A stretch of DNA of 34,090 bases from an uncultured Flavobacteriaceae bacterium (GCA_964601535.1 CAZRNW010000001.1:1-34090); one strand, 5' to 3'; numbered from the stretch's first letter, positions 4,523-33,278 are shown. Translations and numbers: made by a program. The notes: a model not told the origin generated them from the letters alone.

Positions 4523-5149
4523 ATGAATTATAGAGATTTTAATCCTATACAAATTGATTTAACAGTAACTAAACGTGAATCTGATTGGGTTCAAGTTTGT
4601 CCTCATTGTCAAAATGAAAGAACACTTACTTATTGTCAAGCTTGGAATATTAAAAAACAAAAATGTAAAAAAGAATGTAAACCTTGTGCATTAGAATTAG
4701 GATTAATAACTATTAATATAATTGGTTTAGAACATGGTAGAAAATTTTATCCAAGAAAAAATAAATATAAAGGTAATAAATATACTTTATATAAAAATAT
4801 ATTTAATAATCCAAGTCATAATTCTGATATTAAAGAAAAAATGCGAAAAGCAAAATTAGGTAAAAGAGGAAAAGATACAAATAATTGGCAAGGTGGAAAA
4901 ATTTCAGATAGAAAACTTGAAATGTCTAGAGATACTTATAAACAATGGAGAACCTCTATTTTTCGACGAGATAATTATACATGTCAAATTTGTTTTGAAA
5001 GAGGCGGAAATTTAGAAGCAGATCATATTAAAGAATGGTGTAATTATCCTGAATTAAGATATGAATTAAATAATGGTCGAACTCTTTGTGTTGAATGTCA
5101 TAAAAAAACAGATAATTATGGACATAAAGCAAAAAGGAAAAGTGCATAA
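4523..5149 (+). CDS. HNH homing endonuclease (with a NUMOD3-like basic repeat)
   Basis: [19 protein letters not shown]...[15 protein letters not shown] is an HNH/His-Me finger with Cys pairs. [20 protein letters not shown] is NUMOD-like. The gene is inserted between structural genes with 1-nt spacing. Confidence 0.85.
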
Positions 5150-19990: not shown

Positions 19991-20545
19991 ATGCCATTTA
20001 AATTTAAAGAAGACGAAGAAGATGATTTAGAACCAGGAATGCCAGGGGCCCATGAAGAACCTAGTATTCTTGATAAGATTAAAAGTTTAATACCTGAGGA
20101 TATACAAGAACAAATTCCTGATATCAATGATTATAAAAAATCAGCATTAGAAGGTTTATCTGGAATGAAAAATTCCTTTATGGGCGGTTTAGAACGTTTC
20201 GAAAATCAATATAATGCTATGACTCCTGAACAAAAAGCTGAACAGGCATTAGGTATGGCAATGGGATCTGTTGGCGGTATTGGAAAATTAGGTAATGTTT
20301 TAAAAACTGAAGTCCCCATCGCTCAATCTCTTAGAGCTAAAGCTCTTGAAAAATTAGCTCAAGGATCGGAACAAGCAGGTGGATTTATGGGTAAACATTT
20401 ACCAGAATTGCAAGGTGTCCAAAAAGGGACCTTACAAGCAACACATCCTGCTATGCAAAAAATTGAACAAATGATGGCATCTCCTGAAAATATGGATATG
20501 CTTAGAAAACTTCAATCTTTAAAAAATCAATATGGAAAATTTTAA
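19991..20545 (+). CDS. Hypothetical protein, last gene of the plus-strand module
   Basis: ATG start and coding-like composition. Its TAA stop overlaps the stop of the convergent gene. Confidence 0.5.
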   Translation: MPFKFKEDEEDDLEPGMPGAHEEPSILDKIKSLIPEDIQEQIPDINDYKKSALEGLSGMKNSFMGGLERFENQYNAMTPEQKAEQALGMAMGSVGGIGKLGNVLKTEVPIAQSLRAKALEKLAQGSEQAGGFMGKHLPELQGVQKGTLQATHPAMQKIEQMMASPENMDMLRKLQSLKNQYGKF

Positions 20546-21045
20546 CGTTTTTTCTTACGTTTCTTTTTAATAATTTTTCTATATCGTTTAACTAATTTCT
20601 TTTTCTTTCTTTTTTTCTTAAATATTTTAACAGGATCAGGAATAGTTTCTAATATATTTTTATTATCTATATATGCTATCATAGCATCTTCAGCTAAATC
20701 TGGATTAGACATATTTAAATTATGATCATAGAGTTGATCATCAGAAACAGTTAATCCGTTTGCCTTAGCAAACCCTAACATATCTCTATTTCTAGCATTA
20801 TTTCTATCAGTACAATCTTTTTTAAGTTTTTTTGTATTATGAAGATTTTTCTTTAGATTTTTATAATCTAAATCCGCACCGACATACTCTTCAATAAACT
20901 TGTGTACCCATTCTTTTTCTTCACCACTTAATTGATCTAAATAATCCATATCAATCAATTCGCGTCGTATTTTGGGAGAATAAGCTAAATCAAATGCTGG
21001 ATACTTAATCTGATCCCTTCTCGTCTTTTTTGTCTTCCTTGACAT
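20542..21045 (-). CDS. Hypothetical protein with an extreme polybasic C-terminal tail
   Basis: ATG start. The C-terminus is KKKRKKKKLVKRYRKIIKKKRKKKR, suggesting nucleic-acid binding. Last gene of the minus-strand module. Confidence 0.55.
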   Translation of the reverse strand: MSRKTKKTRRDQIKYPAFDLAYSPKIRRELIDMDYLDQLSGEEKEWVHKFIEEYVGADLDYKNLKKNLHNTKKLKKDCTDRNNARNRDMLGFAKANGLTVSDDQLYDHNLNMSNPDLAEDAMIAYIDNKNILETIPDPVKIFKKKRKKKKLVKRYRKIIKKKRKKKR

Positions 21046-21412
21046 TGTTGTAACCTTTAGGACGAATTACTGCATGATGATAATTATCGAACATATCTTC
21101 AGTGATATTCATATTCTCTATATCCATATAGTAATACATTAATCCTTTAACTTTTATTTTTTGAAAAATCTTTGAAAAATTTGTTAGGAATTTTTGTTCT
21201 TTTTCTAAATCCTTATAATTTTTCCATGCCTTATACATTTCGAATATAACCCCGGCTCTGACTTTATATGGTCCCGACTTTAGATCATTATCGATAACAA
21301 ATCGTTTGACATCTGATAATGGTTCTACGTCTGCATTTTCTGGAGCGGTGCTAGCTATCTCTAAAAGAGTCGCTAGTGCATCATCTTTTTTATCTTCCGA
21401 CATTTGTTGCAA
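21005..21412 (-). CDS. Hypothetical protein (135 aa)
   Basis: The track start is TTG at 21412. An in-frame ATG three codons downstream (21403) is an equally plausible start. Confidence 0.45.
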   Translation of the reverse strand: MQQMSEDKKDDALATLLEIASTAPENADVEPLSDVKRFVIDNDLKSGPYKVRAGVIFEMYKAWKNYKDLEKEQKFLTNFSKIFQKIKVKGLMYYYMDIENMNITEDMFDNYHHAVIRPKGYNNVKEDKKDEKGSD

Positions 21413-21734
21413 TAAAGCCCGTAAGAACGGCTCCTAAAATGAAATAGCCCGTTTCTCGCCAAAACTGACGATCTCGGCTAGCTTCTAAAGAAGTAATATA
21501 TTCTTGATGATTTTTTAAACGTTGTTCCAATATTCCTGAGATATCTTCTTGAGCTTTTAATTTTTGTTCTAAAATTGGAAATTGATCATATCTAATACGA
21601 ACTTCTAGTTCCTTTTCAGGACTAAATATGTAACCTGTACATTCAGCAACTTGACCTTTTTCTACACGTTTAACCGGAGGACAATCTGCATATGCGATAT
21701 TGAATAATAGTAGGATAGCTAATAATATTTTCAT
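21390..21734 (-). CDS. Exported protein with an N-terminal signal peptide, Cys18 and a C-terminal TM (u-spanin-like topology)
   Basis: MKILLAILLLFNIAYA/DC at the N-terminus, a coiled-coil middle, and a C-terminal GYFILGAVLTGFIATNV. The lipobox is non-canonical (YADC). Confidence 0.5.
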   Translation of the reverse strand: MKILLAILLLFNIAYADCPPVKRVEKGQVAECTGYIFSPEKELEVRIRYDQFPILEQKLKAQEDISGILEQRLKNHQEYITSLEASRDRQFWRETGYFILGAVLTGFIATNVGR

Positions 21735-21925
21735 TATTTTAAATGCTCATCAATTTCTTTAATATATTTAAGCATATCTTCTCGGTATTTTTTAAGTTCA
21801 TTTAACCTAGACTCTAGCTCTGCAATTTCTTTTTCTTGACCCGTTAATTCTTTACTTAAACTAACTTTTCGAGCTGAAAGAATACCTTTAATGTATTCAG
21901 TGATTCCATTTTTTTTCGATTTCAT
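21734..21925 (-). CDS. Small coiled-coil protein (63 aa)
   Basis: ATG start, TAATG coupling to the next gene, heptad-like charged sequence. Confidence 0.4.
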   Translation of the reverse strand: MKSKKNGITEYIKGILSARKVSLSKELTGQEKEIAELESRLNELKKYREDMLKYIKEIDEHLK

Positions 21926-22133
21926 CTGGTGTTTTTCCTTTAGAATCTTCTTCGACTTTTTTCATTTCATTATCTAATTTTTTAGATTCAGCTTCTTTAT
22001 TTTTTTGTTGCTCATCTAAGCGAGCATCAATAATTGCATGATTGACAGCATCCTTGCTATCTCTATTCTTCCTGAAAAATAAAAATATAGCAGCAATACC
22101 AACTGCTCCTAACATATAATTTAATAAATCCAT
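21897..22133 (-). CDS. Small membrane protein with an N-terminal TM and a charged coiled tail (i-spanin/holin-like layout)
   Basis: LNYMLGAVGIAAIFLFF is followed by a Lys/Glu-rich tail. ATG start overlapping the protease gene's 3' end. Confidence 0.5.
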   Translation of the reverse strand: MDLLNYMLGAVGIAAIFLFFRKNRDSKDAVNHAIIDARLDEQQKNKEAESKKLDNEMKKVEEDSKGKTPDEIEKKWNH

Positions 22134-22975
22134 TGTAAATTATCAATCTTATAAATAAATTGTTTTTTAGATTCTTCAATTTCTCGTGAAAACATTCTAA
22201 ATGATGAACTTGGAGCCATATAAATAATACTATCAACTACATTCGCTTTTAAACTATCTTCACTATCAATCCAATATTCTTTAGATGCCCGTTTTTTATA
22301 TTCATCAAAGGAAATCTTCATTTTATTAGCAACTTCTATTTCGATTTTATTAATATATCGTTGAATAGTTTGAGTTTGAGAAAAAACTTTATCTACTTCT
22401 CCTTGAGTTCCAAAACTCGCTGGATGAAACATAAGTATAGAACGATCTGTCATATAACGTTGAATTCCATATTGATGGATCATAGCTGCCATAGATGCAC
22501 AAAAAGAATAGCATATTGTATGAACCGGAGCATCACTGGCTTGCATCGTTGAAATTAGTGCAGCCCCGTCGATAACCGAACCGCCGGGAGAATAAAGAAC
22601 AACATAAATTGGACTCTTACTCATTGTATTCATTGATCTGATAGCCGCTGCTGCCTGATGGGCATTATTACCAATTGGACCAAATACATTAATCGTTCGA
22701 TCTGGATCTAATCTAAGAACTTTAACTTTTTTGACAGGAGCTATGGGGGGTATATCAGTTGGTGTTATTGGATTTAACGTAACACTTGAAATGGTTTTAT
22801 CGCTTAAATTTGCTTCAACGGAAGCAGTAGGAATATCTAAACTAATTAATGGTGATTTATTGGCTTGAGGAGCTGTTAAATTATTTATCCCAGAGACTAC
22901 AGCTCCAAGACCTATTACAACAAGAACCGTTGCTATTGCTACAAATAGATTATTGTTTGTTTTCTTTACCTGCAC
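22121..22975 (-). CDS. Signal-anchored ClpP-family (S14-like) serine protease
   Basis: The core aligns by eye with E. coli ClpP: IYVVLYSPGGSVIDG (INSPGG), FCASMAAM (GxASM catalytic Ser), ILMFHPAS (HQP catalytic His), VVDSII (LVDSIL). The N-terminus LFVAIATVLVVIGLGAVVSGI is a Gly/Ala-rich TM segment followed by a Pro/Thr linker. GTG start with a strong GGAGGAG Shine-Dalgarno 6 nt upstream. Confidence 0.8.
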   Translation of the reverse strand: MQVKKTNNNLFVAIATVLVVIGLGAVVSGINNLTAPQANKSPLISLDIPTASVEANLSDKTISSVTLNPITPTDIPPIAPVKKVKVLRLDPDRTINVFGPIGNNAHQAAAAIRSMNTMSKSPIYVVLYSPGGSVIDGAALISTMQASDAPVHTICYSFCASMAAMIHQYGIQRYMTDRSILMFHPASFGTQGEVDKVFSQTQTIQRYINKIEIEVANKMKISFDEYKKRASKEYWIDSEDSLKANVVDSIIYMAPSSSFRMFSREIEESKKQFIYKIDNLQWIY

Positions 22976-23273
22976 TTTCTTCTCCTCCGTCTAGTTCGAC
23001 ACTTTTATCGTCTAGATCAATTTTGGCTTTTGTTATTCTTCTAATCATATATAGAATGGTCGAAACAAGCCAAAACATCAGAGTTGTGGAAGTTGCAACA
23101 AATAATTCTACTTTAAAATGTAAAGCTATTGTACTTAAAATAGCTAATAAAAATGTAATGTATGGAAACATTAATGTGATTGATGGACCGTTAGTTGATG
23201 GATCATAAATGAATGGAAGTCTCAATCCTGAGTGAGACCAATCCCGCCATTTAGTTAAAATTTTATCTAACAT
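22950..23273 (-). CDS. Two-TM membrane protein with a charged C-tail (class II holin-like)
   Basis: TM1 ITLMFPYITFLLAILSTIALHF, TM2 LFVATSTTLMFWLVSTILYMI, then RRITKAKIDLDDKSVELDGGEESAGKENKQ. ATG preceded by AAGGAG. First gene after promoter P3. Confidence 0.55.
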   Translation of the reverse strand: MLDKILTKWRDWSHSGLRLPFIYDPSTNGPSITLMFPYITFLLAILSTIALHFKVELFVATSTTLMFWLVSTILYMIRRITKAKIDLDDKSVELDGGEESAGKENKQ

Positions 23274-23305
23274 TACGCTCCTTGCAAAAAGTATGCCACA
23301 TTTTT

Positions 23306-23334
23306 AGTATATCATATATCATCATCGTTGTCAA
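23306..23334 (-). promoter_or_regulatory. Consensus sigma70-type promoter P3 (TTGACA-N17-TATACT, extended -10 TGA)
   Basis: The minus strand reads GCTTGACA ACGATGATGATATATGA TATACT. The -35 is at 23334-23329 and the -10 at 23311-23306. The TGA extended -10 element (23314-23312) is also the stop codon of the HNH gene. A leader of about 35 nt with AAGGAG precedes the ATG at 23273. Confidence 0.7.
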
Positions 23335-23689
23335 GCTTTTTCTTTGCTTGACGTGATTTTGTACGTATTTGGTTTTCTTTGGCTGTTTTATAATCATGAC
23401 AAGCGTCACATAAGATTTGGAGGATATCTTCATTACAAAATAAACGAGTAATGAAACCATCCCAATTATCCCATCCAGAAGGGGGGACGACAGGGATAAC
23501 GTGATCGACGCTTATATCTTTAGGTCCCCAAAGATGAGTTCGACCTTGACGTTTACATTCAGCACATTCATATAAACCACGAGAAACTCGTGCTTTTCCT
23601 AGTGCTAATTTTCGTTTAGACCATTGGTAACTTAACTTTCTGAGCTTCGGAACTAACCAGCTCCGAAGCGAAATTTCTTTTTTAGCCAT
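23312..23689 (-). CDS. HNH endonuclease
   Basis: CAECKRQG...DISVDHVIPVVPP...LCDACHDYKT is an HNH finger with two Cys pairs. ATG start. Confidence 0.8.
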   Translation of the reverse strand: MAKKEISLRSWLVPKLRKLSYQWSKRKLALGKARVSRGLYECAECKRQGRTHLWGPKDISVDHVIPVVPPSGWDNWDGFITRLFCNEDILQILCDACHDYKTAKENQIRTKSRQAKKKLDNDDDI

Positions 23690-23690
23690 C

Positions 23691-24011
23691 CTAGCTATTC
23701 GTTCGAACGCGCTCCTCGTACTTACATAAACCGCATCGTTTAATTATTAAAAATTTTAAATCACTTTCTTCAAGTGGACATTTTCCACACTCAGGACATA
23801 TCGGTTTGTTTGAGAATTTGATCTCAATATCTCCGTTCTCAAAAGCGTCATTAATAATTTCTTCATAATTATGTTCTTGTCTCTCAAGTTGTTTAAGTCG
23901 TTTTTTGAGATTTCGATTTTCACTTTTAAGATTTTGAACTTGTCTTTTAAGATGCTGAACTTCATTTAATTCTTTATTGTTCCGATGCGTTCTTTTCATT
24001 TGTACTTCCAA
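23691..24011 (-). CDS. Coiled-coil protein with a C-terminal zinc-ribbon-like motif
   Basis: CPECGKCP...CGLCKY. The track start is TTG at 24011. The in-frame ATG at 23999 (MKRTHRNN, GGAAG upstream) is the more likely start. Confidence 0.45.
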   Translation of the reverse strand: MEVQMKRTHRNNKELNEVQHLKRQVQNLKSENRNLKKRLKQLERQEHNYEEIINDAFENGDIEIKFSNKPICPECGKCPLEESDLKFLIIKRCGLCKYEERVRTNS

Positions 24012-25068
24012 AAGCGCCAGTATCTCTTTCCGTTAATTCTAAATCATCAACAACTTTAAATTCAAAATGCTGAATCTGTTGTGGAATTAATTGCGCAACA
24101 CGCATTGGTAATTTAATTTCGGGCATATTTTTATCAATTTTCGTTAAAGCAATAATTATATTTCCTAAATATGTTCTATCAATAATACCAACAGAATTTG
24201 TCATAATATAACCGCTCTTACTTAAAGAACTTCTAGGAACTACTAAGCCATAATAACCAAAAGCCGGAGAAACTTTTATTCCGGTATCATAAAATGTGGT
24301 ATCCCCATTAGTTTTAATTTTATCAATAATCGTTAAATCATATCCAGAATCTGATGCTCGTACTTTAGATGGAATTACAGCATCTGGGCGACTTTTAGCC
24401 CATCGAAAAAAATCAGTTTTCCAAAATCTAGAATAACCAATTGATGGAGTCCACGTTGCTATATCTTGATATAAATTAGCCTTTCGGTTTAAATAAATAT
24501 GCGAATTGTTATACAATTTATATAACATATCTAAAGCGTTATTACCTGACCAAACAATTCTTTCTTTATTATCGGTCCAAAATGGAATTTGTAAAAAATC
24601 TGTAATTCCGTTTCTCATTGATTCAGAATTTGTTGTTATTCCACATCGAGGAAGAGTATTATTTTTAGAAATAATAGTTACATGACCATCTCCATCAAAA
24701 AATCCTCTAATAAAATGTCGTTTTAAATTTTCTGATAATAAATATGGAAAATTAACAGTAAAACTTTTTTTACCTGGAACAATATTCAGCCAATTACATA
24801 TATTTTTAACTATTTTGACCGAATTAATTGTAAAACCTACTGTATTTTTCTTAGATTCAAAAATTGGGATATTTAAATTTAATAACAATAATAGATCTTT
24901 AAGAATATGTTTATCTTTTTTATGAATTTCAAGTTGAACTCGATTTTTTTGAATAGTTCCGTCACTTGCTATCCATCCAAGAAAATAAGCTAATTCTTCA
25001 GTTTCAATTGTCGAAAATAAATCTCGATTATAATTGTACTTTATCTTTGAGTTCGATAATTTGCCCAA
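23974..25068 (-). CDS. dut: In-frame fusion: double-motif LAGLIDADG homing-endonuclease domain (N) + complete dUTPase (C)
   Basis: LAGLIDADG motifs LAYFLGWIASDGTI and FIRGFFDGDGHV lie at about nt 25011-24424. All five dUTPase motifs follow: SDSGYDL, VPRSSLS, GIIDRTYLGNI, RVAQLIP, RDTGAFGSTNE. TTG start with an AAGGA Shine-Dalgarno 7 nt upstream. There is no in-frame ATG/GTG/TTG at the domain boundary. Confidence 0.8.
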   Translation of the reverse strand: MGKLSNSKIKYNYNRDLFSTIETEELAYFLGWIASDGTIQKNRVQLEIHKKDKHILKDLLLLLNLNIPIFESKKNTVGFTINSVKIVKNICNWLNIVPGKKSFTVNFPYLLSENLKRHFIRGFFDGDGHVTIISKNNTLPRCGITTNSESMRNGITDFLQIPFWTDNKERIVWSGNNALDMLYKLYNNSHIYLNRKANLYQDIATWTPSIGYSRFWKTDFFRWAKSRPDAVIPSKVRASDSGYDLTIIDKIKTNGDTTFYDTGIKVSPAFGYYGLVVPRSSLSKSGYIMTNSVGIIDRTYLGNIIIALTKIDKNMPEIKLPMRVAQLIPQQIQHFEFKVVDDLELTERDTGAFGSTNEKNASEQ

Positions 25069-25309: not shown

Positions 25310-25338
25310 AGTATATCACATTTTATGTTAATTGTCAA
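25310..25338 (-). promoter_or_regulatory. Consensus sigma70-type promoter P2 (TTGACA-N17-TATACT, extended -10 TGA)
   Basis: The minus strand reads GCTTGACA ATTAACATAAAATGTGA TATACT AATAAA ATG. The -35 is at 25338-25333 and the -10 at 25315-25310. The -35 is formed by the last codons (CTT GAC AAT TAA) of ORF 25328..25579. Confidence 0.7.
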
Positions 25339-27456: not shown

Positions 27457-27661
27457 TCTCTTTGTTAACCTGTGAATTCATAATTTGTTTTTTATAAGCA
27501 CTTTTTTGTTTTAAATGATTATTTTCTTCTTTTAATCTAGCATTTTCATTCATTAAATCTTGAGCTACGCCTTTAGCAAAGGAATTCATAATACTTATTG
27601 ATCGCGTACATATATCTAGTAATAATAATTTTATTTTATTTAGCATTTTTAATTTTTCCAT
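27410..27661 (-). CDS. Hypothetical coiled-coil protein (83 aa)
   Basis: ATG start. The middle looks like a Leu zipper (NENARLKEENNHLKQK). Confidence 0.4.
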   Translation of the reverse strand: MEKLKMLNKIKLLLLDICTRSISIMNSFAKGVAQDLMNENARLKEENNHLKQKSAYKKQIMNSQVNKEIEREKIFKKAPNTAS

Positions 27662-28067
27662 TTTTACGTAATGGTTTTGTTAAAGTATCTTTTATACTCC
27701 ATCCTGATTTTAATCTATAATGAATAGTTTTAGTTGATAGACCCGTTTCTCTAGACCATTCAGCACATGTTTGTCTTTTATTATTAAATTTTAAAAATCT
27801 ATTTGTTGTTCTATTATTAGCTTGTTGTTGTGGAGTTGTCCATCTACAATTATCTGGTGTATATCCTTTATTGTTATTAATTCGATCTAAAGTTAATCCT
27901 TTAGGACATTCTCCCATATCAGCATAAAAATTAAAAAAATTTAACCATCGTTTACAAACTTTAATTTTTTTCTTGTTATATAATTTATAACTATCTTGAG
28001 ATGGATTATTACATCTTTGTATCATTGAATTCCATTTTCTATATGTTAATGTTTCCCAATGTTTCAT
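27636..28067 (-). CDS. HNH_3-type homing endonuclease with a C-terminal helix-turn-helix
   Basis: LTLDRINNNKGYTPDNCRWTTPQQQANN is the HNH_3 signature. CAEWSRETGLSTKTIHYRLKSGWS is the DNA-binding tail. ATGA overlap with the upstream gene. Confidence 0.8.
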   Translation of the reverse strand: MKHWETLTYRKWNSMIQRCNNPSQDSYKLYNKKKIKVCKRWLNFFNFYADMGECPKGLTLDRINNNKGYTPDNCRWTTPQQQANNRTTNRFLKFNNKRQTCAEWSRETGLSTKTIHYRLKSGWSIKDTLTKPLRKNGKIKNAK

Positions 28068-28378: not shown

Positions 28379-29160
28379 TTTCTAAGTGACTCCCTTTTTT
28401 CTTTTGATAATAAATTAGTTCTTCCTTGTTGATGAGCACCACATTCAATACATCTATAGCGTTGAAATTTTCCAGTTGTTGTAAATCGAACTCCATTTTT
28501 TGCAAATTTTTGACTTCCACAAGAACAAACCATATCTTTATCTTCATGATAAACACTAAAATTAATAGTACTATCCCACGGTATTAATTGATTGTATAAT
28601 TCTTCTAATGCCAAAACATCATGAATATTATATGATTTCATCTGGTTCCAAGCTTGTTTATTACCTAATAAACATTCCTTCCATAAAAGAAATCCAGGGA
28701 ATTTTTCATGTTTTAATTTTTTATATTTTTTATTTAATTTATCAGAAAGATATTCAAGTTTATTAGAAGTAAATGCGAAATGTTTAGTTGCTAAAAGTTT
28801 AGTATCAATTTTCTTATAATCACTTGGAGGTTGCATTCCATTTAGAATAAATCTTGCATTTAATTTTTTTAAATCAAAACGATTTGAATTTTGACCAACA
28901 ACAATATCTGCTTCATCTAATAATTTCCATATAATTTCTAAGATTTTTTTATCATTTTCAATATTTTTTGTATTTCTTTGATCAATATACATTACCTTAT
29001 TTTTTGGTTCTCCATGCCATTTTGCAGCTACTGCTAATATATGCCAATCTTTTTCAATCATGTTTAAAGGTATCGTTTGGTCCCATAATGACCAAACTGA
29101 TGCTAAAATTGGCGAAGTTTCAATATCTAATAATAAAATTCTTGGTTTTATTTTTTTCAT
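28375..29160 (-). CDS. Stand-alone PolB-exonuclease-like (DnaQ fold) 3'-5' exonuclease with a C-terminal zinc ribbon
   Basis: ILLLDIETSP (Exo I), VVGQNSNRFDLKKL (Exo II), YNIHDVLALEELY (Exo III), then CSCGS...CIECGAH. Confidence 0.7.
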   Translation of the reverse strand: MKKIKPRILLLDIETSPILASVWSLWDQTIPLNMIEKDWHILAVAAKWHGEPKNKVMYIDQRNTKNIENDKKILEIIWKLLDEADIVVGQNSNRFDLKKLNARFILNGMQPPSDYKKIDTKLLATKHFAFTSNKLEYLSDKLNKKYKKLKHEKFPGFLLWKECLLGNKQAWNQMKSYNIHDVLALEELYNQLIPWDSTINFSVYHEDKDMVCSCGSQKFAKNGVRFTTTGKFQRYRCIECGAHQQGRTNLLSKEKRESLRK

Positions 29161-29705
29161 ATTAAGTGTTTCTCATAAATATTTTTAATCATTTTAAAAA
29201 ATATTTCTTCAGTTAAAGTGTTTTTAGCATAATTACAATTTTTACAACAAGGACGAACATTAGATAATATATATCCTAAATTATTATTAATCCTATCAAT
29301 TCCGGTATAAGTAAATTGACCATGATGTCTTTTGTAATTCGTACTAATATATGGCAATGAACCACAATAAAAACATTTTTCTCTTGAAAAAGAATCAAAT
29401 TGTTCTAATGTTAATTCAAATAATAGATTTTTCTTTTTGGCCTTCTGTTTATAACTATCAAAAACTTTATTTCTAGATGATAATCCATATTCTTTTGATT
29501 TATATCTAGTTGGATGAATACATCCACAAGATTTTGTAAAATTTTTCATATTTAAACTTCTAGCTTTAATAATACGTTCTTTTCCACAATCACATCTACA
29601 TAACCAATTTATTAGTCTATAACCTAATTTATTATAAGCAGGCTCAACTTCTTTAATTACTGTTAGTTTTCCAAATTTTTTGCCAACTAGATTTTTTCGA
29701 GTCAC
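29157..29705 (-). CDS. HNH_3-type homing endonuclease
   Basis: FGKLTVI...WLCRCDCGKE...SCGC at the N-terminus and GIDRINNNLGYILSNVRPCCKNCNYAKN at the C-terminus. GTG start overlapping the upstream stop (GTGA). Confidence 0.75.
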   Translation of the reverse strand: MTRKNLVGKKFGKLTVIKEVEPAYNKLGYRLINWLCRCDCGKERIIKARSLNMKNFTKSCGCIHPTRYKSKEYGLSSRNKVFDSYKQKAKKKNLLFELTLEQFDSFSREKCFYCGSLPYISTNYKRHHGQFTYTGIDRINNNLGYILSNVRPCCKNCNYAKNTLTEEIFFKMIKNIYEKHLI

Positions 29706-29943: not shown

Positions 29944-29972
29944 ATTATACCACATTTTCATACCGTTGTCAA
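29944..29972 (-). promoter_or_regulatory. Consensus sigma70-type promoter P1 (TTGACA-N17-TATAAT, extended -10 TGG)
   Basis: The minus strand reads CGTTGACA ACGGTATGAAAATGTGG TATAAT ATCCT ATG. The -35 is at 29972-29967 and the -10 at 29949-29944. The -35 lies in the last codons (ACG TTG ACA ACG GTA TGA) of the polymerase C-terminal ORF. Confidence 0.7.
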
Positions 29973-30713
29973 CGTTAACAACGCTTGTTCGTTTTTCTTT
30001 AGATGATATTTAGGAAATTTACTCATGTCAAGTAAATTTGATAAGATCTCGGTTGTTTTATATACACGTTCAACATAATGCAGTTTGTTCTCATCCTTCG
30101 ACCAAACTGCGGGGACTTTGAGGACCTCATTCGGGACCATCTTGGGGGCTCCATCTTTATAGAAGACTGGCTCACCTTTTGCATAGGCTTGTATCATCCC
30201 GTCTAAAGCGTTATATACCCAAACTTTATCACCTTCTTGGAGCGTTTGACCTTTTAATGCATCCATTACTTTTGTCTCATTTGTTCGTTCTCCAGTTAAG
30301 ACTTTTTTAGTCACAGTTTTTTTAACCGTCCAGCGATTGATATCCTGGATGTTCATAGCTTCTTTTGTGTATTTCTGGAAAATGGGGACTAATCTTTCAT
30401 AATCAATTCCATAACTTATTAATGAATCTATATATTCTTTTAACATATACTTTAATGCTGGTTCTTTTTTGGTATCTTTAAATGCTGAACCTTTAATTGT
30501 TATTTTTCCATCCTTAACTAATATATAGTTTTTAGCTTTTAATACTATACATTGATCATAATACCCGTCATCATCAAAAATCATAAAATCAGGCATTATT
30601 GAATTTAATTCAATTAATAGTAATTTTCGTTCTTCATTAGAAAACGGAGACATGTTATATTTACAAAAAGAAATACTGTCTGTATCTGTCGGGCCAATAA
30701 TAAAATTATACAT
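29958..30713 (-). CDS. Family B DNA polymerase, C-terminal fragment (motif C onward)
   Basis: FIIGPTDTDSISF is motif C (DTDS) and LKAKNYILV is KxY-like. The ATG overlaps the GIY-YIG stop (ATGTATAA). Confidence 0.8.
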   Translation of the reverse strand: MYNFIIGPTDTDSISFCKYNMSPFSNEERKLLLIELNSIMPDFMIFDDDGYYDQCIVLKAKNYILVKDGKITIKGSAFKDTKKEPALKYMLKEYIDSLISYGIDYERLVPIFQKYTKEAMNIQDINRWTVKKTVTKKVLTGERTNETKVMDALKGQTLQEGDKVWVYNALDGMIQAYAKGEPVFYKDGAPKMVPNEVLKVPAVWSKDENKLHYVERVYKTTEILSNLLDMSKFPKYHLKKNEQALLTLTTV

Positions 30714-31371
30714 AAAAGAACTTAACTCCAGGTCTAGACCATTCTGATCTATTTTTTAAATTATCACAAACCGCTTGAACTGATATATCCCAAAATTTAG
30801 AAGCTGCTATTAATGATTTATGAATTATTCCCATAGAATCTATCACTTTTTTTCGTCGTTTAGTTTGATCAACTCGACCAATAGAATTAACTCTTATAGC
30901 AGTTCTGGACATTTTTCTTTTAGTTTTTTCTGACCATTTTCTAAGTTTTCTTTTTTCAGACATTCGTTGTCTAGTTTCTAATGAGGCCTTCTTCCCGTAA
31001 TTTGGATGATTTTTACCTTTTGGCCATTTTATTTTCTTAAACTTAAATTTAGTTTTTCGACTATGCTTTCGTCCCGCCATCGGAGCTAAGGCATCTTTAG
31101 CTACATTATAAAGAGGAGTTAATGTATTTAAACAAAACTGTTCTAAAATTAATAAATCGTCTTTTTCGCAGTTAATAAAAATTTCAAATATTAGATTATT
31201 TAATCCATATTTATTATAAACTCTTTGTAAAATCGGACTATGATGTTTTTTCTTAAATAAATCCCTTTTATGTACTGATATTCTTTTGTTAATATCAATA
31301 GAACTTCCTATATAAAAATGATTATTAATTTTATTCCTAATAAAATATATTCCAGATATTTTACTCCTCAT
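30706..31371 (-). CDS. I-TevI-like GIY-YIG homing endonuclease inserted in the polymerase gene
   Basis: SGIYFIRNKINNHFYIGSSIDINKRISVHKRDL is the GIY-YIG motif. GKNHPNYGKKASLETRQRMSEKRK is NUMOD3-like. The C-terminal HTH IAASKFWDISVQAVCDNLKN parallels the I-TevI layout. Confidence 0.9.
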   Translation of the reverse strand: MRSKISGIYFIRNKINNHFYIGSSIDINKRISVHKRDLFKKKHHSPILQRVYNKYGLNNLIFEIFINCEKDDLLILEQFCLNTLTPLYNVAKDALAPMAGRKHSRKTKFKFKKIKWPKGKNHPNYGKKASLETRQRMSEKRKLRKWSEKTKRKMSRTAIRVNSIGRVDQTKRRKKVIDSMGIIHKSLIAASKFWDISVQAVCDNLKNRSEWSRPGVKFFYV

Positions 31372-33073
31372 CTGTTGCTCCTGTTTTTTCTTTAAAAATT
31401 TGAAACCAATAATCGGATTTGTATCCAGATGCCCATTCTAATGCTGTATCAATTATTTTTCTAGTTTCATGAGTAATTTTTTCAGCTAATTTAGGACTAT
31501 TGAAATTTAACCCTTGCGTATTACATAGACCATATGCGCTATTAATAAAAATCTTAGCGGTTTGTTCTCTATTCTTATAATAATCATCTTTAGTTTGTTT
31601 ATATAAATCCTTTAATTTGAAACGTTCTTCTGTAAAATATTTTACCATTTTATAAAAATTTGAATTTGGGTCCTTTACTTTATCATGTAATTTAAATCTT
31701 AAAACTTGAGAAGGATATGCCGATTTTAAATCAACTTTTAACATATTTTTATATATACCAGGAACTGCAAATGATATTCCGCCTTGAACATAATCTAATT
31801 GGCTCGCTCTAGGGATACTCTGATCATGTTGTAAATAAGAGCGGATCATAAAACTATTAATCTGTGCCCCTGTTGCACTGTTAATAATTTGCTGAAGTGT
31901 CTTTGGAATAGATTGAGTATAATAGAAAAAGGGGGGGATCATGCGTTCATAGAGTGCCATGGCGTCGTCCGAATCGTCCATCGCATACGCCTTTATTTTT
32001 ACCCGTTCTGATGCTTTATTCCAGTTTTCAGCAATCTTAGAAGCATCATAATGTTGTCTATCTTTTTTTTCTAAACCAAGTTGGGCTATAATAGATTTTA
32101 ATCCATAAGAAGTAAAATTTCGCTCAGCAGCATCGTATTTAATAGATAGAAACATTGTATCGACAATTTCTCTGCCAGCTATAAAACAATTTTGATATGA
32201 ATACGTCTGACTTCCATCTTTTCGGAACTCAGACGTGTATTCGTTAAATTTTATACCCGATTCGTCTCGACCAAGACTAACGTTTTCAAATTTGGTTCTT
32301 GAATAACAATGATTTATATATGGTAAATCGTATGAAAAAATATTGTGACCGCACATAATGCTAGGGTTCATCTTGCGAACCCAAGATGACCAATCTTCTA
32401 TCATGTTAGCGTCATTATTTTCGTAGTCATCTACAGAAAACATTTTCTTTATTGTCTTTCCGTTTTTCTTAAATGTGTTAGAAATAATTAAGACGCGACT
32501 AGTCTGGTCCCGATTTAGTCCTGTTGTTTCTATATCGAACGCGAGAACGGACACGTCCTCTACTTTCATTCCTTTAAAGTACGTTATACCTTCACGAACT
32601 AAGGCTCCTTCTTCTCCACTATAAATTGAAAAAAAGTCTAATTTATAACCCTTCTGTCGAGCAGCATCAAATTCGGAACGAGTATCTACTTCATGAATAT
32701 ATTTATAATATCCATTTCCACGTAAACGACTAAAGCCTTCATAATTCTTCGGCGCCAATAGCCAATATTTGTTCTCCCGAATTTCTGTTTCTATCTTTCC
32801 ATTTATTTCTTTGTGTAAATAAAGAATATTATCATCAACATTAATTGATACTATATTTTCCGTTCTGTCTTTTCCAAAAATAAGATCATTATGACTCTCT
32901 TCTTCGGAACGAATAAATGAGTTCGGAAGAAGAATTTCATCACCTGTATTAAATTTATATAACTTTCCTTCTTTTTGCTCAACTTGTTCTAAAATACTAA
33001 CTTCAGGATCATTAGTAAAAGCTAAAAAATCTTGATACATATCCTTTGAGTCAATAATTGTAATATTATTCAT
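31361..33073 (-). CDS. Family B DNA polymerase, N-terminal fragment (exonuclease domain, motifs A and B)
   Basis: VLAFDIETTGL (Exo I), HNIFSYDLPYI (Exo II), YAMDDSDDAMALY (Exo III), VDLKSAYPSQV (motif A, DxxSLYPS type), KIFINSAYG (motif B, KxxxNSxYG). I prefer the ATG at 33073 to the track's TTG at 33097. Confidence 0.85.
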   Translation of the reverse strand: MNNITIIDSKDMYQDFLAFTNDPEVSILEQVEQKEGKLYKFNTGDEILLPNSFIRSEEESHNDLIFGKDRTENIVSINVDDNILYLHKEINGKIETEIRENKYWLLAPKNYEGFSRLRGNGYYKYIHEVDTRSEFDAARQKGYKLDFFSIYSGEEGALVREGITYFKGMKVEDVSVLAFDIETTGLNRDQTSRVLIISNTFKKNGKTIKKMFSVDDYENNDANMIEDWSSWVRKMNPSIMCGHNIFSYDLPYINHCYSRTKFENVSLGRDESGIKFNEYTSEFRKDGSQTYSYQNCFIAGREIVDTMFLSIKYDAAERNFTSYGLKSIIAQLGLEKKDRQHYDASKIAENWNKASERVKIKAYAMDDSDDAMALYERMIPPFFYYTQSIPKTLQQIINSATGAQINSFMIRSYLQHDQSIPRASQLDYVQGGISFAVPGIYKNMLKVDLKSAYPSQVLRFKLHDKVKDPNSNFYKMVKYFTEERFKLKDLYKQTKDDYYKNREQTAKIFINSAYGLCNTQGLNFNSPKLAEKITHETRKIIDTALEWASGYKSDYWFQIFKEKTGATDEE

Positions 33074-33278
33074 TTTCTTGTTCCCAAATATTTTCAAAAT
33101 ATTTAGTTCCTTCAGGAAATCCCATTTCTTCAGCAGAAGAAAAATTTGTTGATGGAGGTAGCATTCCCATATGTTCTAAACCTTCTAAAATTTCATTAGC
33201 CACCGTTTCATCTAATTGACAATCTTCATAAGTATTGATTAGTTTTGTAAGATAAGTTACCATTTCACTACGTTTCAT
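33066..33278 (-). CDS. Hypothetical 70-aa protein
   Basis: ATG start, ATGA coupling with the upstream gene, no motif. Confidence 0.4.
   Translation of the reverse strand: MKRSEMVTYLTKLINTYEDCQLDETVANEILEGLEHMGMLPPSTNFSSAEEMGFPEGTKYFENIWEQENE

What the first reader, a model, noticed from the sequence alone, without database searches (positions are those of the whole stretch)
21390..23334. Promoter-led membrane-protein operon with a signal-anchored ClpP-family protease where an endolysin would be expected
Directly downstream of promoter P3 lie five tightly overlapping genes.
- A 2-TM protein with a charged C-tail, which has a class II holin-like layout.
- A 284-aa protein with an N-terminal Gly/Ala/Ser/Thr-rich TM segment (LFVAIATVLVVIGLGAVVSGI, compositionally like a SAR signal-anchor), a Pro/Thr linker, and a complete ClpP/S14-type core (SPGGSV; Ser in CASMAAM; His in FHPAS).
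- A 78-aa protein with an N-terminal TM and a charged tail.
- A 63-aa coiled coil.
- A 114-aa protein with a signal peptide, Cys18 and a C-terminal TM, which is a u-spanin-like topology.
I could not recognise any lysozyme, amidase, transglycosylase or cell-wall peptidase motif anywhere in the 34 kb. Phage ClpP-like proteases are normally soluble prohead proteases next to portal and capsid genes. This one appears exported or membrane-tethered and sits in the opposite-strand module. It may be a protease-based envelope-disruption (lysis) cassette, or an envelope-remodelling or exclusion system. This is the candidate I rate highest for undescribed biology.
Basis: partly seen in the sequence, partly recalled or inferred. 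Interest (0 to 1): 0.75.

Follow-up and report, generated by a model that had tools for sequence, protein, structure and literature searches.

The report
Exported ClpP-like protease in phage lysis-type module
An uncultured phage encodes a ClpP-type protease that is exported and anchored to the cell membrane rather than working inside the cell; its relatives sit inside classical lysis gene cassettes, which points to an undescribed proteolytic helper in phage exit and not to a replacement for the cell-wall enzyme.

Summary
The five overlapping minus-strand genes and their promoter are real. The 284-aa protein has an N-terminal membrane anchor, a disordered Pro/Thr linker and a confident ClpP fold. 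Ser161 and His184 are invariant, and Glu233 sits at the Asp position.

About 95% of more than 230 homologs carry an export signal (anchor, cleavable signal peptide or lipobox). The figure is 0/120 for control virion proteins and 0/102 for ordinary ClpPs.

The order HNH-(U)-protease-D1-D3-D4-D5 recurs in about 19 loci of an abundant uncultured podophage group. In the sister clade the exported protease sits inside canonical lysis cassettes (holin, protease, GH24 lysozyme, i-/o-spanin). Seven of ten other contexts are directly adjacent to lysis or muralytic genes.

The "no endolysin" argument fails. The window is a genome fragment, and clade genomes encode M15 peptidase and/or GH24 lysozyme elsewhere.

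It is not a prohead protease: the head module has a scaffold and MCP but no protease. The 114-aa protein is not a lipoprotein u-spanin, and the anchor is not SAR-like.

Best reading: a periplasm-facing accessory protease of the lysis/envelope programme whose substrate is unknown. I found no literature on it. It is a new variant of a known kind, and interesting.

The parts
23306..23334 (-). Sigma70-type promoter (TTGACA-17-TGnTATACT) leading the module
   Evidence: 11/12 match with an extended -10. The sequence was read. The same element is present in L001, and sigma70-like pairs precede U in L007 and L003. A consensus match plus conservation is not proof of activity.
22950..23273 (-). U: 107-aa membrane protein with two hydrophobic segments (34-50, 57-73), a conserved N-terminal motif (GLRLPFIYDP..PSITL) and a charged C-tail; class II holin-like layout; optional in the clade
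   Evidence: No Pfam, PHROG or NCBIfam family. Found in 11 of about 19 syntenic loci; in the others the HNH gene abuts the protease. Its stop overlaps the protease start by 26 nt.
22121..22975 (-). P: 284-aa signal-anchored ClpP-fold serine protease (whole gene)
   Evidence: PF00574 E=2.4e-21. AlphaFold2 pLDDT 84, core >=95. Foldseek to ClpP crystal structures: TM-score 0.82-0.88 on the target, rmsd 1.3-1.7 A over about 165 residues. Below the curated cut-off of every NCBIfam ClpP, head-maturation and SppA family.
22886..22954 (-). N-terminal membrane anchor of P (residues 8-30); Lys4/Lys5 precede it, so N-in/C-out is predicted
   Evidence: KD 2.7-2.85. Helix 8-30 in the model. An N-terminal hydrophobic export signal is present in 116/120 and 108/114 homologs, against 0/120 and 0/102 controls.
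22715..22885 (-). Pro/Thr/Ser-rich linker of P (residues 31-87), predicted disordered
   Evidence: pLDDT 57-71 and almost no secondary structure. Not conserved in sequence.
22220..22714 (-). ClpP-fold catalytic domain of P (residues 88-252). Ser161 = 22493-22495, His184 = 22424-22426, Glu233 = 22277-22279, oxyanion-region Gly131/132 = 22580-22585, clade-marker Cys155/Cys159 = 22511-22513 / 22499-22501
   Evidence: Alignment to ClpP. Column conservation. Codon coordinates verified.
21897..22133 (-). D1: 78-aa bitopic protein with an N-terminal TM followed by a basic cluster and a highly charged ~59-aa tail ending EKKWNH; the tail is predicted cytoplasmic
   Evidence: Family found in 15 loci. 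No known family. Similarity to short i-spanins was tested and is not significant.
21734..21925 (-). D2: 63-aa soluble coiled-coil protein; present only here and in L001
   Evidence: Only weak coiled-coil-type hits.
21390..21734 (-). D3: 114-aa protein with a cleavable AxA-type signal peptide, a conserved N-terminal motif (KGxxAxCxGYxFxPEKE), a coiled coil and a C-terminal TM; not a lipoprotein
   Evidence: Family of 17 loci. All have AxA-like sites, most have no Cys, and all have the C-terminal hydrophobic segment. No known family.
21005..21412 (-). D4: conserved downstream gene (135 aa), no TM, function unknown
   Evidence: Syntenic in 18 loci. No family.
20542..21045 (-). D5: conserved last gene of the leftward operon (167 aa, 'NNARNR' motif, basic C-tail), function unknown
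   Evidence: Syntenic in 17 loci. D5-like ORFs occur in the Silvanigrella phage CP017838.1. No family.
23312..23689 (-). Conserved HNH-family gene immediately upstream of the module (125 aa)
   Evidence: PF01844 E=6.8e-5 and PHROG HNH families. Conserved at this position in 18-19 loci.

Best explanation
**What it is.** The 284-aa protein is a Sec-exported ClpP-fold serine protease. It is tethered to the cytoplasmic membrane by an N-terminal signal anchor, and its catalytic domain (Ser161-His184-Glu233) faces the periplasm on a flexible linker of about 55 residues.

**Family.** It belongs to a large, phage-specific family of exported ClpP-like proteases. That family is separate from the cytoplasmic ATP-dependent ClpP, from phage prohead proteases and from S49 SppA/SohB.

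**Context.** In this phage it is transcribed from its own promoter. It is translationally coupled with small membrane proteins: U (holin-like, optional), D1 (N-terminal TM with a cytoplasmic charged tail) and D3 (a periplasmic coiled coil held by a C-terminal TM).

**Proposed role.** It most likely works as an accessory proteolytic component of the phage's lysis/envelope-disruption programme. It acts in the periplasm beside a conventional muralytic enzyme encoded elsewhere in the genome, not instead of one.

**Shown and inferred.**
- Shown: fold, catalytic residues, export signals, conserved synteny, and lysis-cassette residence of the sister clade.
- Inferred: periplasmic orientation, timing, and the substrate.

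**Preferred substrate guess (about 25% on its own).** The flexible or membrane-proximal tethers of co-encoded exported lysis proteins. Candidates are D3 here, and in relatives the lysozyme with a Pro-rich linker and C-terminal membrane domain or the lipoprotein SLT. The alternative is that it cuts host envelope tether proteins.
For: **Fold and active site.**
- PF00574 E=2.4e-21; PDB ClpP matches by sequence.
- AlphaFold2 core pLDDT >=95; Foldseek TM-score 0.82-0.88 on ClpP targets, rmsd 1.3-1.7 A.
- Ser161 and His184 invariant in 62/62; Glu233 in 55/62.

**Export.**
- An N-terminal hydrophobic signal is present in 116/120 and 108/114 homologs. It is variously a signal anchor, a cleavable signal peptide or a lipobox.
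- Controls: 0/120 adaptor proteins from the same phages and 0/102 ordinary ClpPs.

**Synteny.** HNH-(U)-P-D1-D3-D4-D5 occurs in about 19 loci. The promoter is conserved.

**Lysis link.** By NJ tree the sister group of the window clade is L024/L025.
- L024: holin phrog_920, P, Phage_lysozyme E=1e-34, i-spanin phrog_1026 E=3.5e-10, o-spanin phrog_1275 E=2.7e-16.
- L025: holin, P, lysozyme E=1.8e-41, i-spanin E=3.7e-14.
- L045: P followed by Phage_lysozyme.
- L208: a P22-like phage with P, a 53-aa ORF and Phage_lysozyme just upstream of TerS/TerL/P22 portal.
- P0247 contig: Phage_lysis (Rz) directly before P.
- L027 and L030: SLT transglycosylase directly before P.
- Tally: 7 of 10 non-clade contexts.

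**Not a head protease.** The clade's head module is TerS-TerL-portal-...-scaffold-MCP with no protease. NCBIfam head-maturation score is 67.9 against a cut-off of 120.
Against: - No experiment exists, and no substrate is identified.
- In the window's own clade the module contains no recognisable holin, endolysin or spanin family. The lysis link therefore rests on protein topology and on the sister clade.
- The module sits at the end of the replication/nucleotide-metabolism operon, not beside the clade's M15 peptidase and pre-TerS membrane protein, which may be the real endolysin and holin.
- Three exported homologs are not next to lysis genes: L026, the jumbo phage L043/L044, and L209.
- Genes next to lysis cassettes can be unrelated cargo.
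- In L001/L002 the protease is split by a 2-nt deletion, so it may be dispensable.
- Orientation of the anchor rests on the positive-inside rule only.
Confidence: 0.55

Rival explanations
1. Envelope remodelling unrelated to lysis. The exported protease degrades host surface or periplasmic proteins during infection. Possible targets are the phage receptor, uptake machinery or envelope-stress sensors. The effect would be to exclude superinfecting phages or to stop progeny being lost on debris (a receptor-destroying enzyme).
For: - The protease is exported with an intact active site.
- In the window clade it lies in the leftward replication-type operon with its own sigma70-like promoter, not next to the clade's M15/GH24 genes.
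- Some homologs are in non-lysis contexts: the jumbo phage L043/L044 next to polysaccharide genes, and L209.
Against: - 7 of 10 non-clade contexts are directly adjacent to canonical lysis or muralytic genes. In four of these the protease sits between holin and endolysin, with translational coupling.
- No known exclusion family was detected.
- The PADLOC library was not searched.
Confidence: 0.2
2. One reading: the protease is the phage's wall- or envelope-breaching enzyme and takes the place of an endolysin (protease-based lysis).
For: - It is a signal-anchored enzyme between a holin-like and a spanin-like protein.
- No muralytic domain is found in the 34-kb window by Pfam or PHROGs, or by tblastn with the clade's own M15, GH24 and SLT sequences.
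- D1 has the architecture and relative position of Mu's releasin next to a signal-anchored enzyme.
Against: - The window is a fragment lacking the TerL/portal/MCP region.
- The clade genome L007/L086 encodes Phage_lysozyme and Peptidase_M15_3.
- M15 occurs in 18 loci of the group, and GH24 occurs in the protease-bearing genomes L017/L018 and L020/L021.
- Sister-clade proteases always accompany a lysozyme or SLT.
- From established knowledge, the ClpP fold has no known activity on peptidoglycan stem peptides.
Confidence: 0.07
3. An SppA-like housekeeping peptidase. It clears signal peptides or misfolded exported phage proteins from the membrane during the burst of phage protein export, with no direct role in lysis.
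For: - Its topology matches the membrane-anchored, periplasm-facing ClpP-fold peptidases SppA and SohB (established knowledge).
- Weak SppA-domain hits occur in sister-clade members (TIGR00706 E=3e-7 to 7e-5, far below the cut-off).
- The module encodes a protein with a cleavable signal peptide, D3.
Against: - The window protein does not hit S49/SppA profiles at all.
- It has the S14-type Ser-His pair rather than the S49 Ser-Lys dyad.
- Hosts already encode SppA (established knowledge).
- The tight, recurrent placement inside lysis cassettes is not explained.
Confidence: 0.1
4. A prohead (capsid maturation) protease, as the PHROG labels suggest.
For: The best PHROG hits are 'head maturation protease' families (phrog_94 E=4.7e-22 and others). 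NCBIfam NF045542 gives E=1e-18.
Against: - Those hits cover only the generic ClpP core and fall below the curated cut-off (67.9 against 120 bits).
- About 95% of homologs carry export signals, including lipoboxes.
- The gene lies in the opposite-strand non-structural module.
- The clade's head module has a separate scaffold protein and an MCP of about 400 aa, with no protease between portal and MCP.
- L208 is a P22-like phage. From established knowledge, P22-type heads mature without a protease.
Confidence: 0.02

Closest known systems
ClpP, MEROPS family S14 (ATP-dependent Clp protease proteolytic subunit)
   Same: Same fold (Foldseek TM-score 0.82-0.88, rmsd 1.3-1.7 A). Same nucleophile Ser and general-base His in the same motifs, the GG oxyanion region, and the long 'handle' helix.
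   Different: It is exported and membrane-anchored rather than cytoplasmic. The N-terminal axial-loop region that gates the pore and contacts ClpX/ClpA is replaced by a TM helix and a disordered linker. Asp is replaced by Glu at the third triad position. It scores far below the ClpP cut-offs (67.7 against 249 bits). No AAA+ partner could reach it in the periplasm (inference).
Phage ClpP-related head maturation proteases (NCBIfam NF045542; PHROG 94/133/2976)
   Same: A phage-encoded ClpP-fold core, and the best PHROG labels.
   Different: It carries an export signal and lies in the non-structural module. It scores below the family cut-off. It branches apart from the prohead-type proteases L031-L039, which are only 18-23% identical. 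The clade's heads use a separate scaffold and no protease.
SppA / SohB (MEROPS S49), membrane-anchored periplasm-facing ClpP-fold peptidases
   Same: The overall design is the same: an N-terminal membrane anchor with a ClpP-fold peptidase domain on the outer face of the cytoplasmic membrane (established knowledge). It plausibly acts on membrane-proximal or unstructured peptides.
   Different: A different family. There is no PF01343 or SppA hit for the window protein. It has Ser-His(-Glu) rather than a Ser-Lys dyad. It is phage-encoded and lysis-cassette-linked.
Canonical three-step lysis cassette of phages of Gram-negative hosts (holin, endolysin, spanins)
   Same: Small overlapping genes for membrane proteins led by their own promoter. 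U has a class II holin-like layout, and D3 is a periplasm-spanning coiled coil anchored in the inner membrane. Sister-clade proteases lie inside bona fide cassettes.
   Different: None of U, D1 or D3 belongs to a known holin or spanin family. There is no muralytic gene in the module. A protease is not a recognised component of such cassettes, and my literature searches found no report.
Mu gp25 'releasin' (DUF2730) paired with a signal-anchored (SAR) endolysin
   Same: D1, like gp25, is a short protein with an N-terminal TM, almost no periplasmic part and a charged tail predicted to be cytoplasmic. It is encoded just downstream of a signal-anchored periplasmic enzyme (PMC9239132).
   Different: There is no DUF2730 hit. 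D1's tail is roughly neutral, not anionic. The partner enzyme is a protease whose anchor is strongly hydrophobic, not SAR-like.
Unimolecular spanin (T1 gp11 type)
   Same: D3 has an N-terminal secretion signal and a C-terminal TM, with a coiled coil between them.
   Different: The defining outer-membrane lipoprotein signal is missing. The Cys is not conserved, the -1 residue is D/Q/E, and every member has an AxA signal-peptidase-I site.

Membership tests
ClpP superfamily (clan SK fold) | ClpP/crotonase-like alpha/beta fold with the nucleophile Ser at the N-terminus of a helix | tested here: met
   PF00574 E=2.4e-21. Foldseek TM-score 0.82-0.88 on ClpP targets, rmsd 1.3-1.7 A.
ClpP proper (S14, ATP-dependent) | Ser-His-Asp catalytic triad | tested here: inconclusive
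   Ser161 and His184 are invariant and aligned. The Asp position holds Glu233 (E 55, D 2, Q 4, N 1 of 62), so an acidic residue is mostly kept but not universally.
ClpP proper (S14, ATP-dependent) | Curated family score (NCBIfam/TIGRFAM equivalog or subfamily cut-off) | tested here: not met
   NF001368 67.7 bits against 249. TIGR00493 55.6 against 308.6.
ClpP proper (S14, ATP-dependent) | Cytoplasmic location, with N-terminal axial loops and docking of a Clp AAA+ unfoldase | tested here: not met
   N-terminal TM helix 8-30 and disordered linker 31-87 replace the axial-loop region. Export signals occur in about 95% of homologs against 0/102 ordinary ClpPs. Docking itself was not testable.
ClpP proper (S14, ATP-dependent) | Heptameric rings stacked into a tetradecamer | not testable with these tools
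   Only monomer prediction was available. The handle helix (194-218) is present in the model.
Phage ClpP-related head maturation protease | Curated family score (NF045542 cut-off 120 bits) | tested here: not met
   67.9 bits.
Phage ClpP-related head maturation protease | Gene in the head module (between portal and scaffold/MCP, or fused to them); cytoplasmic protein | tested here: not met
   The gene lies in the opposite-strand module next to HNH and membrane-protein genes. The clade's head module is portal-...-scaffold-MCP without a protease. The protein carries an export signal.
SppA/SohB (S49) | Peptidase_S49 profile match and a Ser-Lys dyad | tested here: not met
   No PF01343 or SppA hit for the window protein. 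The catalytic His is invariant.
SppA/SohB (S49) | Membrane anchor with the peptidase domain on the periplasmic face | tested here: inconclusive
   The anchor is present and the positive-inside rule (K4, K5) favours N-in/C-out. Relatives with cleavable signal peptides and lipoboxes support export. There is no experimental topology.
Endolysin (any muralytic family) | Lysozyme, transglycosylase, amidase or cell-wall peptidase domain | tested here: not met
   P hits only CLP_protease. No muralytic family appears in any window ORF scanned. No tblastn hit in the window to the clade's M15, GH24 or SLT.
SAR (signal-anchor-release) enzyme | Weakly hydrophobic N-terminal TMD rich in Gly/Ala/Ser/Thr | tested here: not met
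   The window anchor has KD 2.71 and a GAST fraction of 0.37; the family mean is 0.37 +/- 0.07. Two classical SAR domains, quoted from memory and so a lead only, give 0.53-0.63. Many relatives use cleavable signal peptides or lipoboxes.
Class II holin (for U) | Two TMDs, N-in/C-in, with a charged cytoplasmic C-tail | tested here: inconclusive
   Two hydrophobic segments and a basic-then-acidic C-tail are present. The second segment is weak (KD 1.66) and is undetected in several homologs. U has no known holin family and is absent from about 8 syntenic loci.
Class II holin (for U) | Lethal, timed membrane permeabilisation | not testable with these tools
   Needs expression experiments.
Unimolecular spanin (for D3) | N-terminal outer-membrane lipoprotein signal (lipobox Cys) | tested here: not met
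   Cys18 follows Asp. Homologs have D/Q/E/G/N after an AxA site, and most have no Cys.
Unimolecular spanin (for D3) | C-terminal TMD anchoring in the inner membrane | tested here: met
   A C-terminal hydrophobic segment followed by basic residue(s) is present in the family.
i-spanin, short Rz-like type phrog_1026 (for D1) | Sequence relatedness to the family | tested here: not met
   No PHROG hit for D1 members. D1 HMM scores against the L024, L025 and L045 i-spanins (2.3-7.9 bits) fall within a shuffled-tail control.
Releasin DUF2730 (for D1) | PF10805 profile match | tested here: not met
   No Pfam hit at E<0.1. The architecture is similar.

The most novel reading that the evidence does not exclude
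Exported ClpP-fold proteases are a widespread, so far unrecognised fourth enzymatic component of phage lysis. More than 800 homologs are seen here. They would be periplasmic 'tether-cutting' proteases that release or activate membrane-tethered lysis proteins. Candidate substrates are lysozymes with C-terminal membrane domains, lipoprotein transglycosylases, and D3-type anchored coiled coils. Alternatively they sever protein links between the envelope layers. In either case they work alongside holin, endolysin and spanin.
Probability: 0.4. Interest if true: 0.8.

Novelty: new variant of a known kind. Interest (0 to 1): 0.66.

Why it matters
- **Lysis model.** Phage lysis of Gram-negative cells is taught as three steps carried out by holin, endolysin and spanin (or disruptin). 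A conserved, exported protease embedded in these cassettes across very different phages would add a proteolytic step that nobody has studied. The phages range from P22-like and GC-rich proteobacterial phages to an abundant low-GC uncultured podophage group.
- **ClpP biology.** This would be a ClpP-fold enzyme that works without an ATPase outside the cytoplasm, using the S14 Ser-His chemistry and not the S49 dyad.
- **Annotation.** These genes are currently auto-annotated as 'ATP-dependent Clp protease' or 'head maturation protease'. For this family that label is almost certainly wrong.
- **Applications.** If the substrates are envelope tethers or anchored lysins, the enzymes could be useful tools or antibacterial adjuncts.

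Tried and rejected
1. **D1 as a short i-spanin.** The tails look alike (EKKWNH against DKWSRD). However, profile scores are no better than a shuffled-tail control and there is no PHROG hit. Rejected as homology and kept as a resemblance only.
2. **Periplasmic disulfide between the invariant Cys155 and Cys159.** Both lie in one beta-strand (E151-160) four residues apart, too far for an intramolecular bond (inference). Cys155 is also present in E. coli ClpP. Rejected; the pair is only a clade marker.
3. **SAR-type anchor.** Rejected on composition.
4. **D3 as a lipoprotein u-spanin.** Rejected.
5. **Walking along viral contig IMGVR_UViG_3300034073_004114 with exact patterns.** One step worked. 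The next returned the same stored stretch. The merged 30 kb was collinear with the window and added nothing.
6. **Metagenome scan with the sister-clade alignment.** The pattern was too generic and returned only ordinary ClpPs. It was useful only as a negative control.
7. **Genome scan of GTDB species representatives.** It found only the L004 phage contig, binned in an uncultured Flavobacterium MAG, and no prophages. The host remains unknown. SD usage is uninformative.
8. **Cultured-phage searches.**
   - blastn found nothing.
   - tblastn with the window protease found only distant ClpP or prohead types.
   - The L024 and L027 proteases found no close relative.
   - The nearest cultured structural relative, Silvanigrella phage CP017838.1, lacks the module.
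9. **PDB sequence searches for the clade's MCP and portal.** No hits.
10. **Literature.** Five searches found no description of exported ClpP-like proteases in phage lysis.
11. **Public source names for the contig.** None were available.

Full report
**1.

The minus strand between 21390 and 23334 holds five tightly packed ORFs:
- U: 22950-23273, 107 aa
- protease P: 22121-22975, 284 aa, GTG start behind GGAGGAG
- D1: 21897-22133, 78 aa
- D2: 21734-21925, 63 aa
- D3: 21390-21734, 114 aa

They overlap by 26, 13, 29 and 1 nt. Two further conserved genes follow in the same operon: D4 (21005-21412) and D5 (20542-21045).

A near-consensus sigma70-type element (TTGACA-17-TGnTATACT, 11 of 12) lies at 23334->23306. 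It sits in the last codons of an HNH gene and is followed by AAGGAG and the ATG of U. The same element is present in the closest relative, L001. The more distant L007 and L003 also have sigma70-like -35/-10 pairs just upstream of U. The promoter is therefore more than a chance match, although its activity is untested.

**2. The protease has a genuine ClpP fold and an intact active site.**

- Pfam gives CLP_protease, E=2.4e-21. phmmer against PDB sequences finds only ClpP chains.
- An AlphaFold2 model built on 62 homologs has pLDDT >=95 over residues 88-255. It shows an N-terminal helix (8-30) and a low-confidence linker (31-87).
- Foldseek superposes the core on ClpP crystal structures at TM-score 0.82-0.88 (target-normalised) and rmsd 1.3-1.7 A over about 165 residues.
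- Ser161 (CASM) and His184 (MFHPA) align with the ClpP nucleophile and base and are invariant in 62/62 sequences. The Asp position holds Glu233 (55/62).
- NCBIfam places it in the superfamily but below the curated cut-off of every named family: head-maturation 67.9 against 120 bits, ClpP 67.7 against 249, and no SppA hit.

**3. Export is a conserved property of the family.**

I applied one simple rule to all sets: a 15-residue Kyte-Doolittle mean of at least 1.8 within the first 70 residues.

| Set | With N-terminal hydrophobic segment |
|---|---|
| Best homologs of the window protein | 116/120 |
| Best homologs of the sister type | 108/114 |
| Adaptor proteins from the same phages (control) | 0/120 |
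| Ordinary ClpP-like ORFs from the metagenome scan (control) | 0/102 |

The segment varies across the family. It can be an uncleaved anchor followed by a Pro/Thr/Ser linker, a classical cleavable signal peptide, or a lipobox. What selection keeps is export, not a particular sequence.

The window anchor is strongly hydrophobic (KD 2.71; Gly/Ala/Ser/Thr fraction 0.37), so it is not SAR-like. Lys4 and Lys5 before the helix predict N-in/C-out. This orientation is an inference.

**4. The gene neighbourhood is conserved.**

Context look-ups and iterative profiles built in the sandbox show the order HNH-(U)-P-D1-D3-D4-D5. It converges on the end of the structural module in about 19 independent loci whose proteases are 36-66% identical.

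- U is missing from about eight of these loci.
- D2 is confined to the window and L001.
- D3 always has an AxA-type signal-peptidase-I site, a short conserved N-terminal motif, a coiled coil and a C-terminal TM. Most members lack any Cys, so D3 is not a lipoprotein.
- D1 has an N-terminal TM followed by a basic cluster, which points to a cytoplasmic tail.
- None of U, D1, D3, D4 or D5 matches any Pfam, PHROG or NCBIfam family.

The phage group itself is abundant: more than 785 adaptor homologs, on contigs of 55-86 kb. It has an SU10-type adaptor and no close cultured relative. The nearest cultured relative is a Silvanigrella aquatica phage that shares structural genes but not this module.

**5. 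The functional clue comes from relatives outside the clade.**

A neighbour-joining tree of the catalytic cores places the proteases of L024 and L025 as sister to the window clade. They are well separated from the prohead-type proteases (L031-L039) and from E. coli ClpP. These sister enzymes are a signal peptide plus a ClpP core, and they sit inside textbook lysis cassettes.

| Context | Genes around the exported protease (P) |
|---|---|
| L024 | holin (phrog_920, E=7e-10), P, Phage_lysozyme (E=1e-34), short i-spanin (phrog_1026, E=3.5e-10), lipoprotein o-spanin (phrog_1275, E=2.7e-16) |
| L025 | same order: lysozyme E=1.8e-41, i-spanin E=3.7e-14 |
| L045 | holin-like, P, Phage_lysozyme, short i-spanin-like |
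| L208 (P22-like: Sf6-type TerS, P22 portal) | small TM protein, P, 53-aa ORF, Phage_lysozyme, short i-spanin-like, immediately upstream of the terminase genes |
| P0247 contig | P directly follows a Phage_lysis (Rz) gene |
| L027, L030 | P directly follows an exported SLT transglycosylase |

Three contexts show no lysis genes nearby: L026, the jumbo phage L043/L044, and L209. In total, 7 of 10 contexts outside the window clade are directly adjacent to canonical lysis or muralytic genes.

In all four lysozyme cases the lysozyme carries a Pro-rich linker and a C-terminal membrane domain. In L027 the SLT is a lipoprotein. So the neighbouring muralytic enzymes are themselves exported or tethered.

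**6. The 'endolysin is missing' argument does not hold.**

It is true that no window ORF matches a muralytic family. tblastn with the clade's own enzymes also finds nothing in the window.

But the window is a fragment. A DnaB C-terminus runs off its right end, and TerS, TerL, portal, scaffold and MCP are absent.

I used the terminase as an anchor and recovered the missing region from two clade genomes.
- L086 lies on the same 79.8-kb contig as L007, which has the HNH-U-P module. It encodes a Phage_lysozyme right after the portal (E=6.9e-6, above the gathering score). It also encodes a 141-aa Peptidase_M15_3 (E=1.4e-7, above the gathering score).
- M15 homologs occur in 18 terminase-anchored loci of the group, usually 1-2.5 kb upstream of TerS/TerL.
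- GH24 homologs occur in the protease-bearing genomes L017/L018 (via L047/L048) and L020/L021.

The clade therefore has ordinary endolysin candidates, and the protease is an addition to them, not a substitute. Whether this particular genome has one cannot be told from 34 kb.

**7. It is not a prohead protease.**

The PHROG 'head maturation protease' labels reflect only the shared ClpP core, and the curated cut-off is not reached.

In the clade's head module the order is membrane protein, TerS, TerL, portal..., acidic scaffold-like protein (about 320 aa), then an MCP of about 400 aa. There is no protease gene between portal and MCP. The MCP and TerL assignments are supported by matches annotated as such in cultured phages. 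The scaffold and portal assignments are my inference from position, length and conservation.

An exported protein cannot act on cytoplasmic proheads (established knowledge).

**8. How it most likely works.**

- Shown: an exported ClpP-fold enzyme with a complete Ser-His(-Glu) site; translational coupling with membrane proteins; and residence of close relatives in lysis cassettes.
- Inferred: it acts in the periplasm late in infection as an accessory to lysis.

A ClpP-type chamber without an unfoldase accepts only peptides or unstructured segments (established knowledge for ClpP). The neighbouring proteins in every clade include exported proteins held to the membrane by flexible tethers. Examples are D3 here, the lysozyme with its linker and membrane domain, and the lipoprotein SLT. 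My preferred specific model is therefore tether cutting: releasing or activating anchored lysis proteins. Cutting host envelope tether proteins is the main alternative.

Two precedents show that lysis uses periplasmic proteolysis and dedicated release factors:
- Host DegP degrades the T4 antiholin RI (cited in PMC8385771).
- Mu's releasin gp25 is an N-out/C-in protein encoded downstream of a signal-anchored endolysin (PMC9239132). D1 shares gp25's architecture and relative position, but not its family or its net charge.

**9. Caveats.**

- In the window clade the module sits at the end of the replication-type operon. It is away from the M15 gene and from the conserved 90-99-aa membrane protein that precedes TerS, which may be the true endolysin and holin.
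- A role in exclusion or receptor destruction is not excluded.
- In L001/L002 a 2-nt deletion splits the protease into 216-aa and 69-aa ORFs with a TAAAATG stop-restart. Both halves are intact. This is either a tolerated split or a sign of dispensability.
- The host is unknown. One clade contig is binned in an uncultured Flavobacterium MAG, which is weak evidence.

**10. Novelty.**

Five full-text searches found no report of an exported ClpP-type protease in phage lysis. Cultured phages in GenBank have no close relative of these enzymes.

The fold and chemistry are known, and so is the design of membrane-anchored, periplasm-facing ClpP-fold peptidases (SppA, SohB). What is new is a phage-specific exported S14-like family of more than 800 members that is recurrently wired into lysis cassettes. 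I rate it a new variant of a known kind, with interest about 0.66.

Noticed in passing
window 23974-25068 (-), 30706-31371 (-), 29958-30713 and 31361-33097 (-), 4523-5149 (+), 29157-29705 (-), 27636-28067 (-): The window is crowded with homing-endonuclease-type genes. A LAGLIDADG domain is fused in one 364-aa ORF with the dUTPase; relative L001 has a plain 148-aa dUTPase. A GIY-YIG gene sits between two pieces of the family-B DNA polymerase, which is a single ORF in L001. There is an HNH gene in the tail-fibre region and two further probable HNH-like ORFs (these last two were judged by eye, not tested). Possible intein or split-gene arrangements.
   Followed up: partly
L024 9479-10201; L025 10555-11484; L045 6652-7476; L208 5825-6535: All four GH24 lysozymes next to an exported ClpP carry the same unusual C-terminal extension: a Pro-rich linker, a weakly hydrophobic Gly/Ala-rich helix and a strong TM helix (pinholin-like). 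None has an N-terminal signal. I do not know of this endolysin architecture being characterised.
   Followed up: partly
window 21005-21412 and 20542-21045 (-); L127 23773-24108 and 32835-33170: The gene pair D4-D5 (D5 has an 'NNARNR' motif and a very basic C-tail) closes the leftward operon in 17-18 loci. D5-like ORFs occur twice in the Silvanigrella phage record. There is no family match. They may be DNA-binding or regulatory proteins.
   Followed up: no
window 23312-23689 (-): A 125-aa HNH protein is conserved at the same position, directly upstream of the protease module, in 18-19 diverged loci. It behaves as a resident gene and not as a mobile homing endonuclease.
   Followed up: partly
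L077 88-387; L086 9270-9557; L017 9373-9651 (-); L022 9285-9563 (-); M15 e.g. L086 18963-19388 (-): A 90-99-aa two-TM protein always precedes TerS in this phage group, and an M15 peptidase often lies 1-2.5 kb upstream on the other strand. These are candidates for the group's real holin and endolysin. The membrane protein has no known family.
   Followed up: partly
L001 10001-10862; L002 3796-4657: In the closest relative the protease gene is split by a 2-nt deletion into 216-aa and 69-aa ORFs joined by a TAAAATG stop-restart. The split is identical in two sequencing runs, and both halves are still conserved.
   Followed up: yes
window 25310-25338 (-) and 23306-23334 (-): The same promoter type (TTGACA-17-TGnTATACT with an extended -10) occurs twice in the leftward module. 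This suggests a set of host-sigma70-dependent phage promoters.
   Followed up: partly
window 22499-22513 (-), Cys155 and Cys159 of the protease: A TxCxxxCASM Cys pair flanking the catalytic Ser is invariant in the window clade, and is also present in L045 and L208. It is absent from L024, L025, L027 and L030. Its function is unknown. From the model's secondary structure, an intramolecular disulfide between the two is unlikely.
   Followed up: partly
L043/L044 6001-6642 (contigs of 68-295 kb, 29% GC): An exported ClpP homolog in a probable jumbo phage sits just after a block of polysaccharide-biosynthesis genes (PS_pyruv_trans, GT-D-like, DegT, PglD_N). It is a different context from the lysis cassettes.
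   Followed up: no
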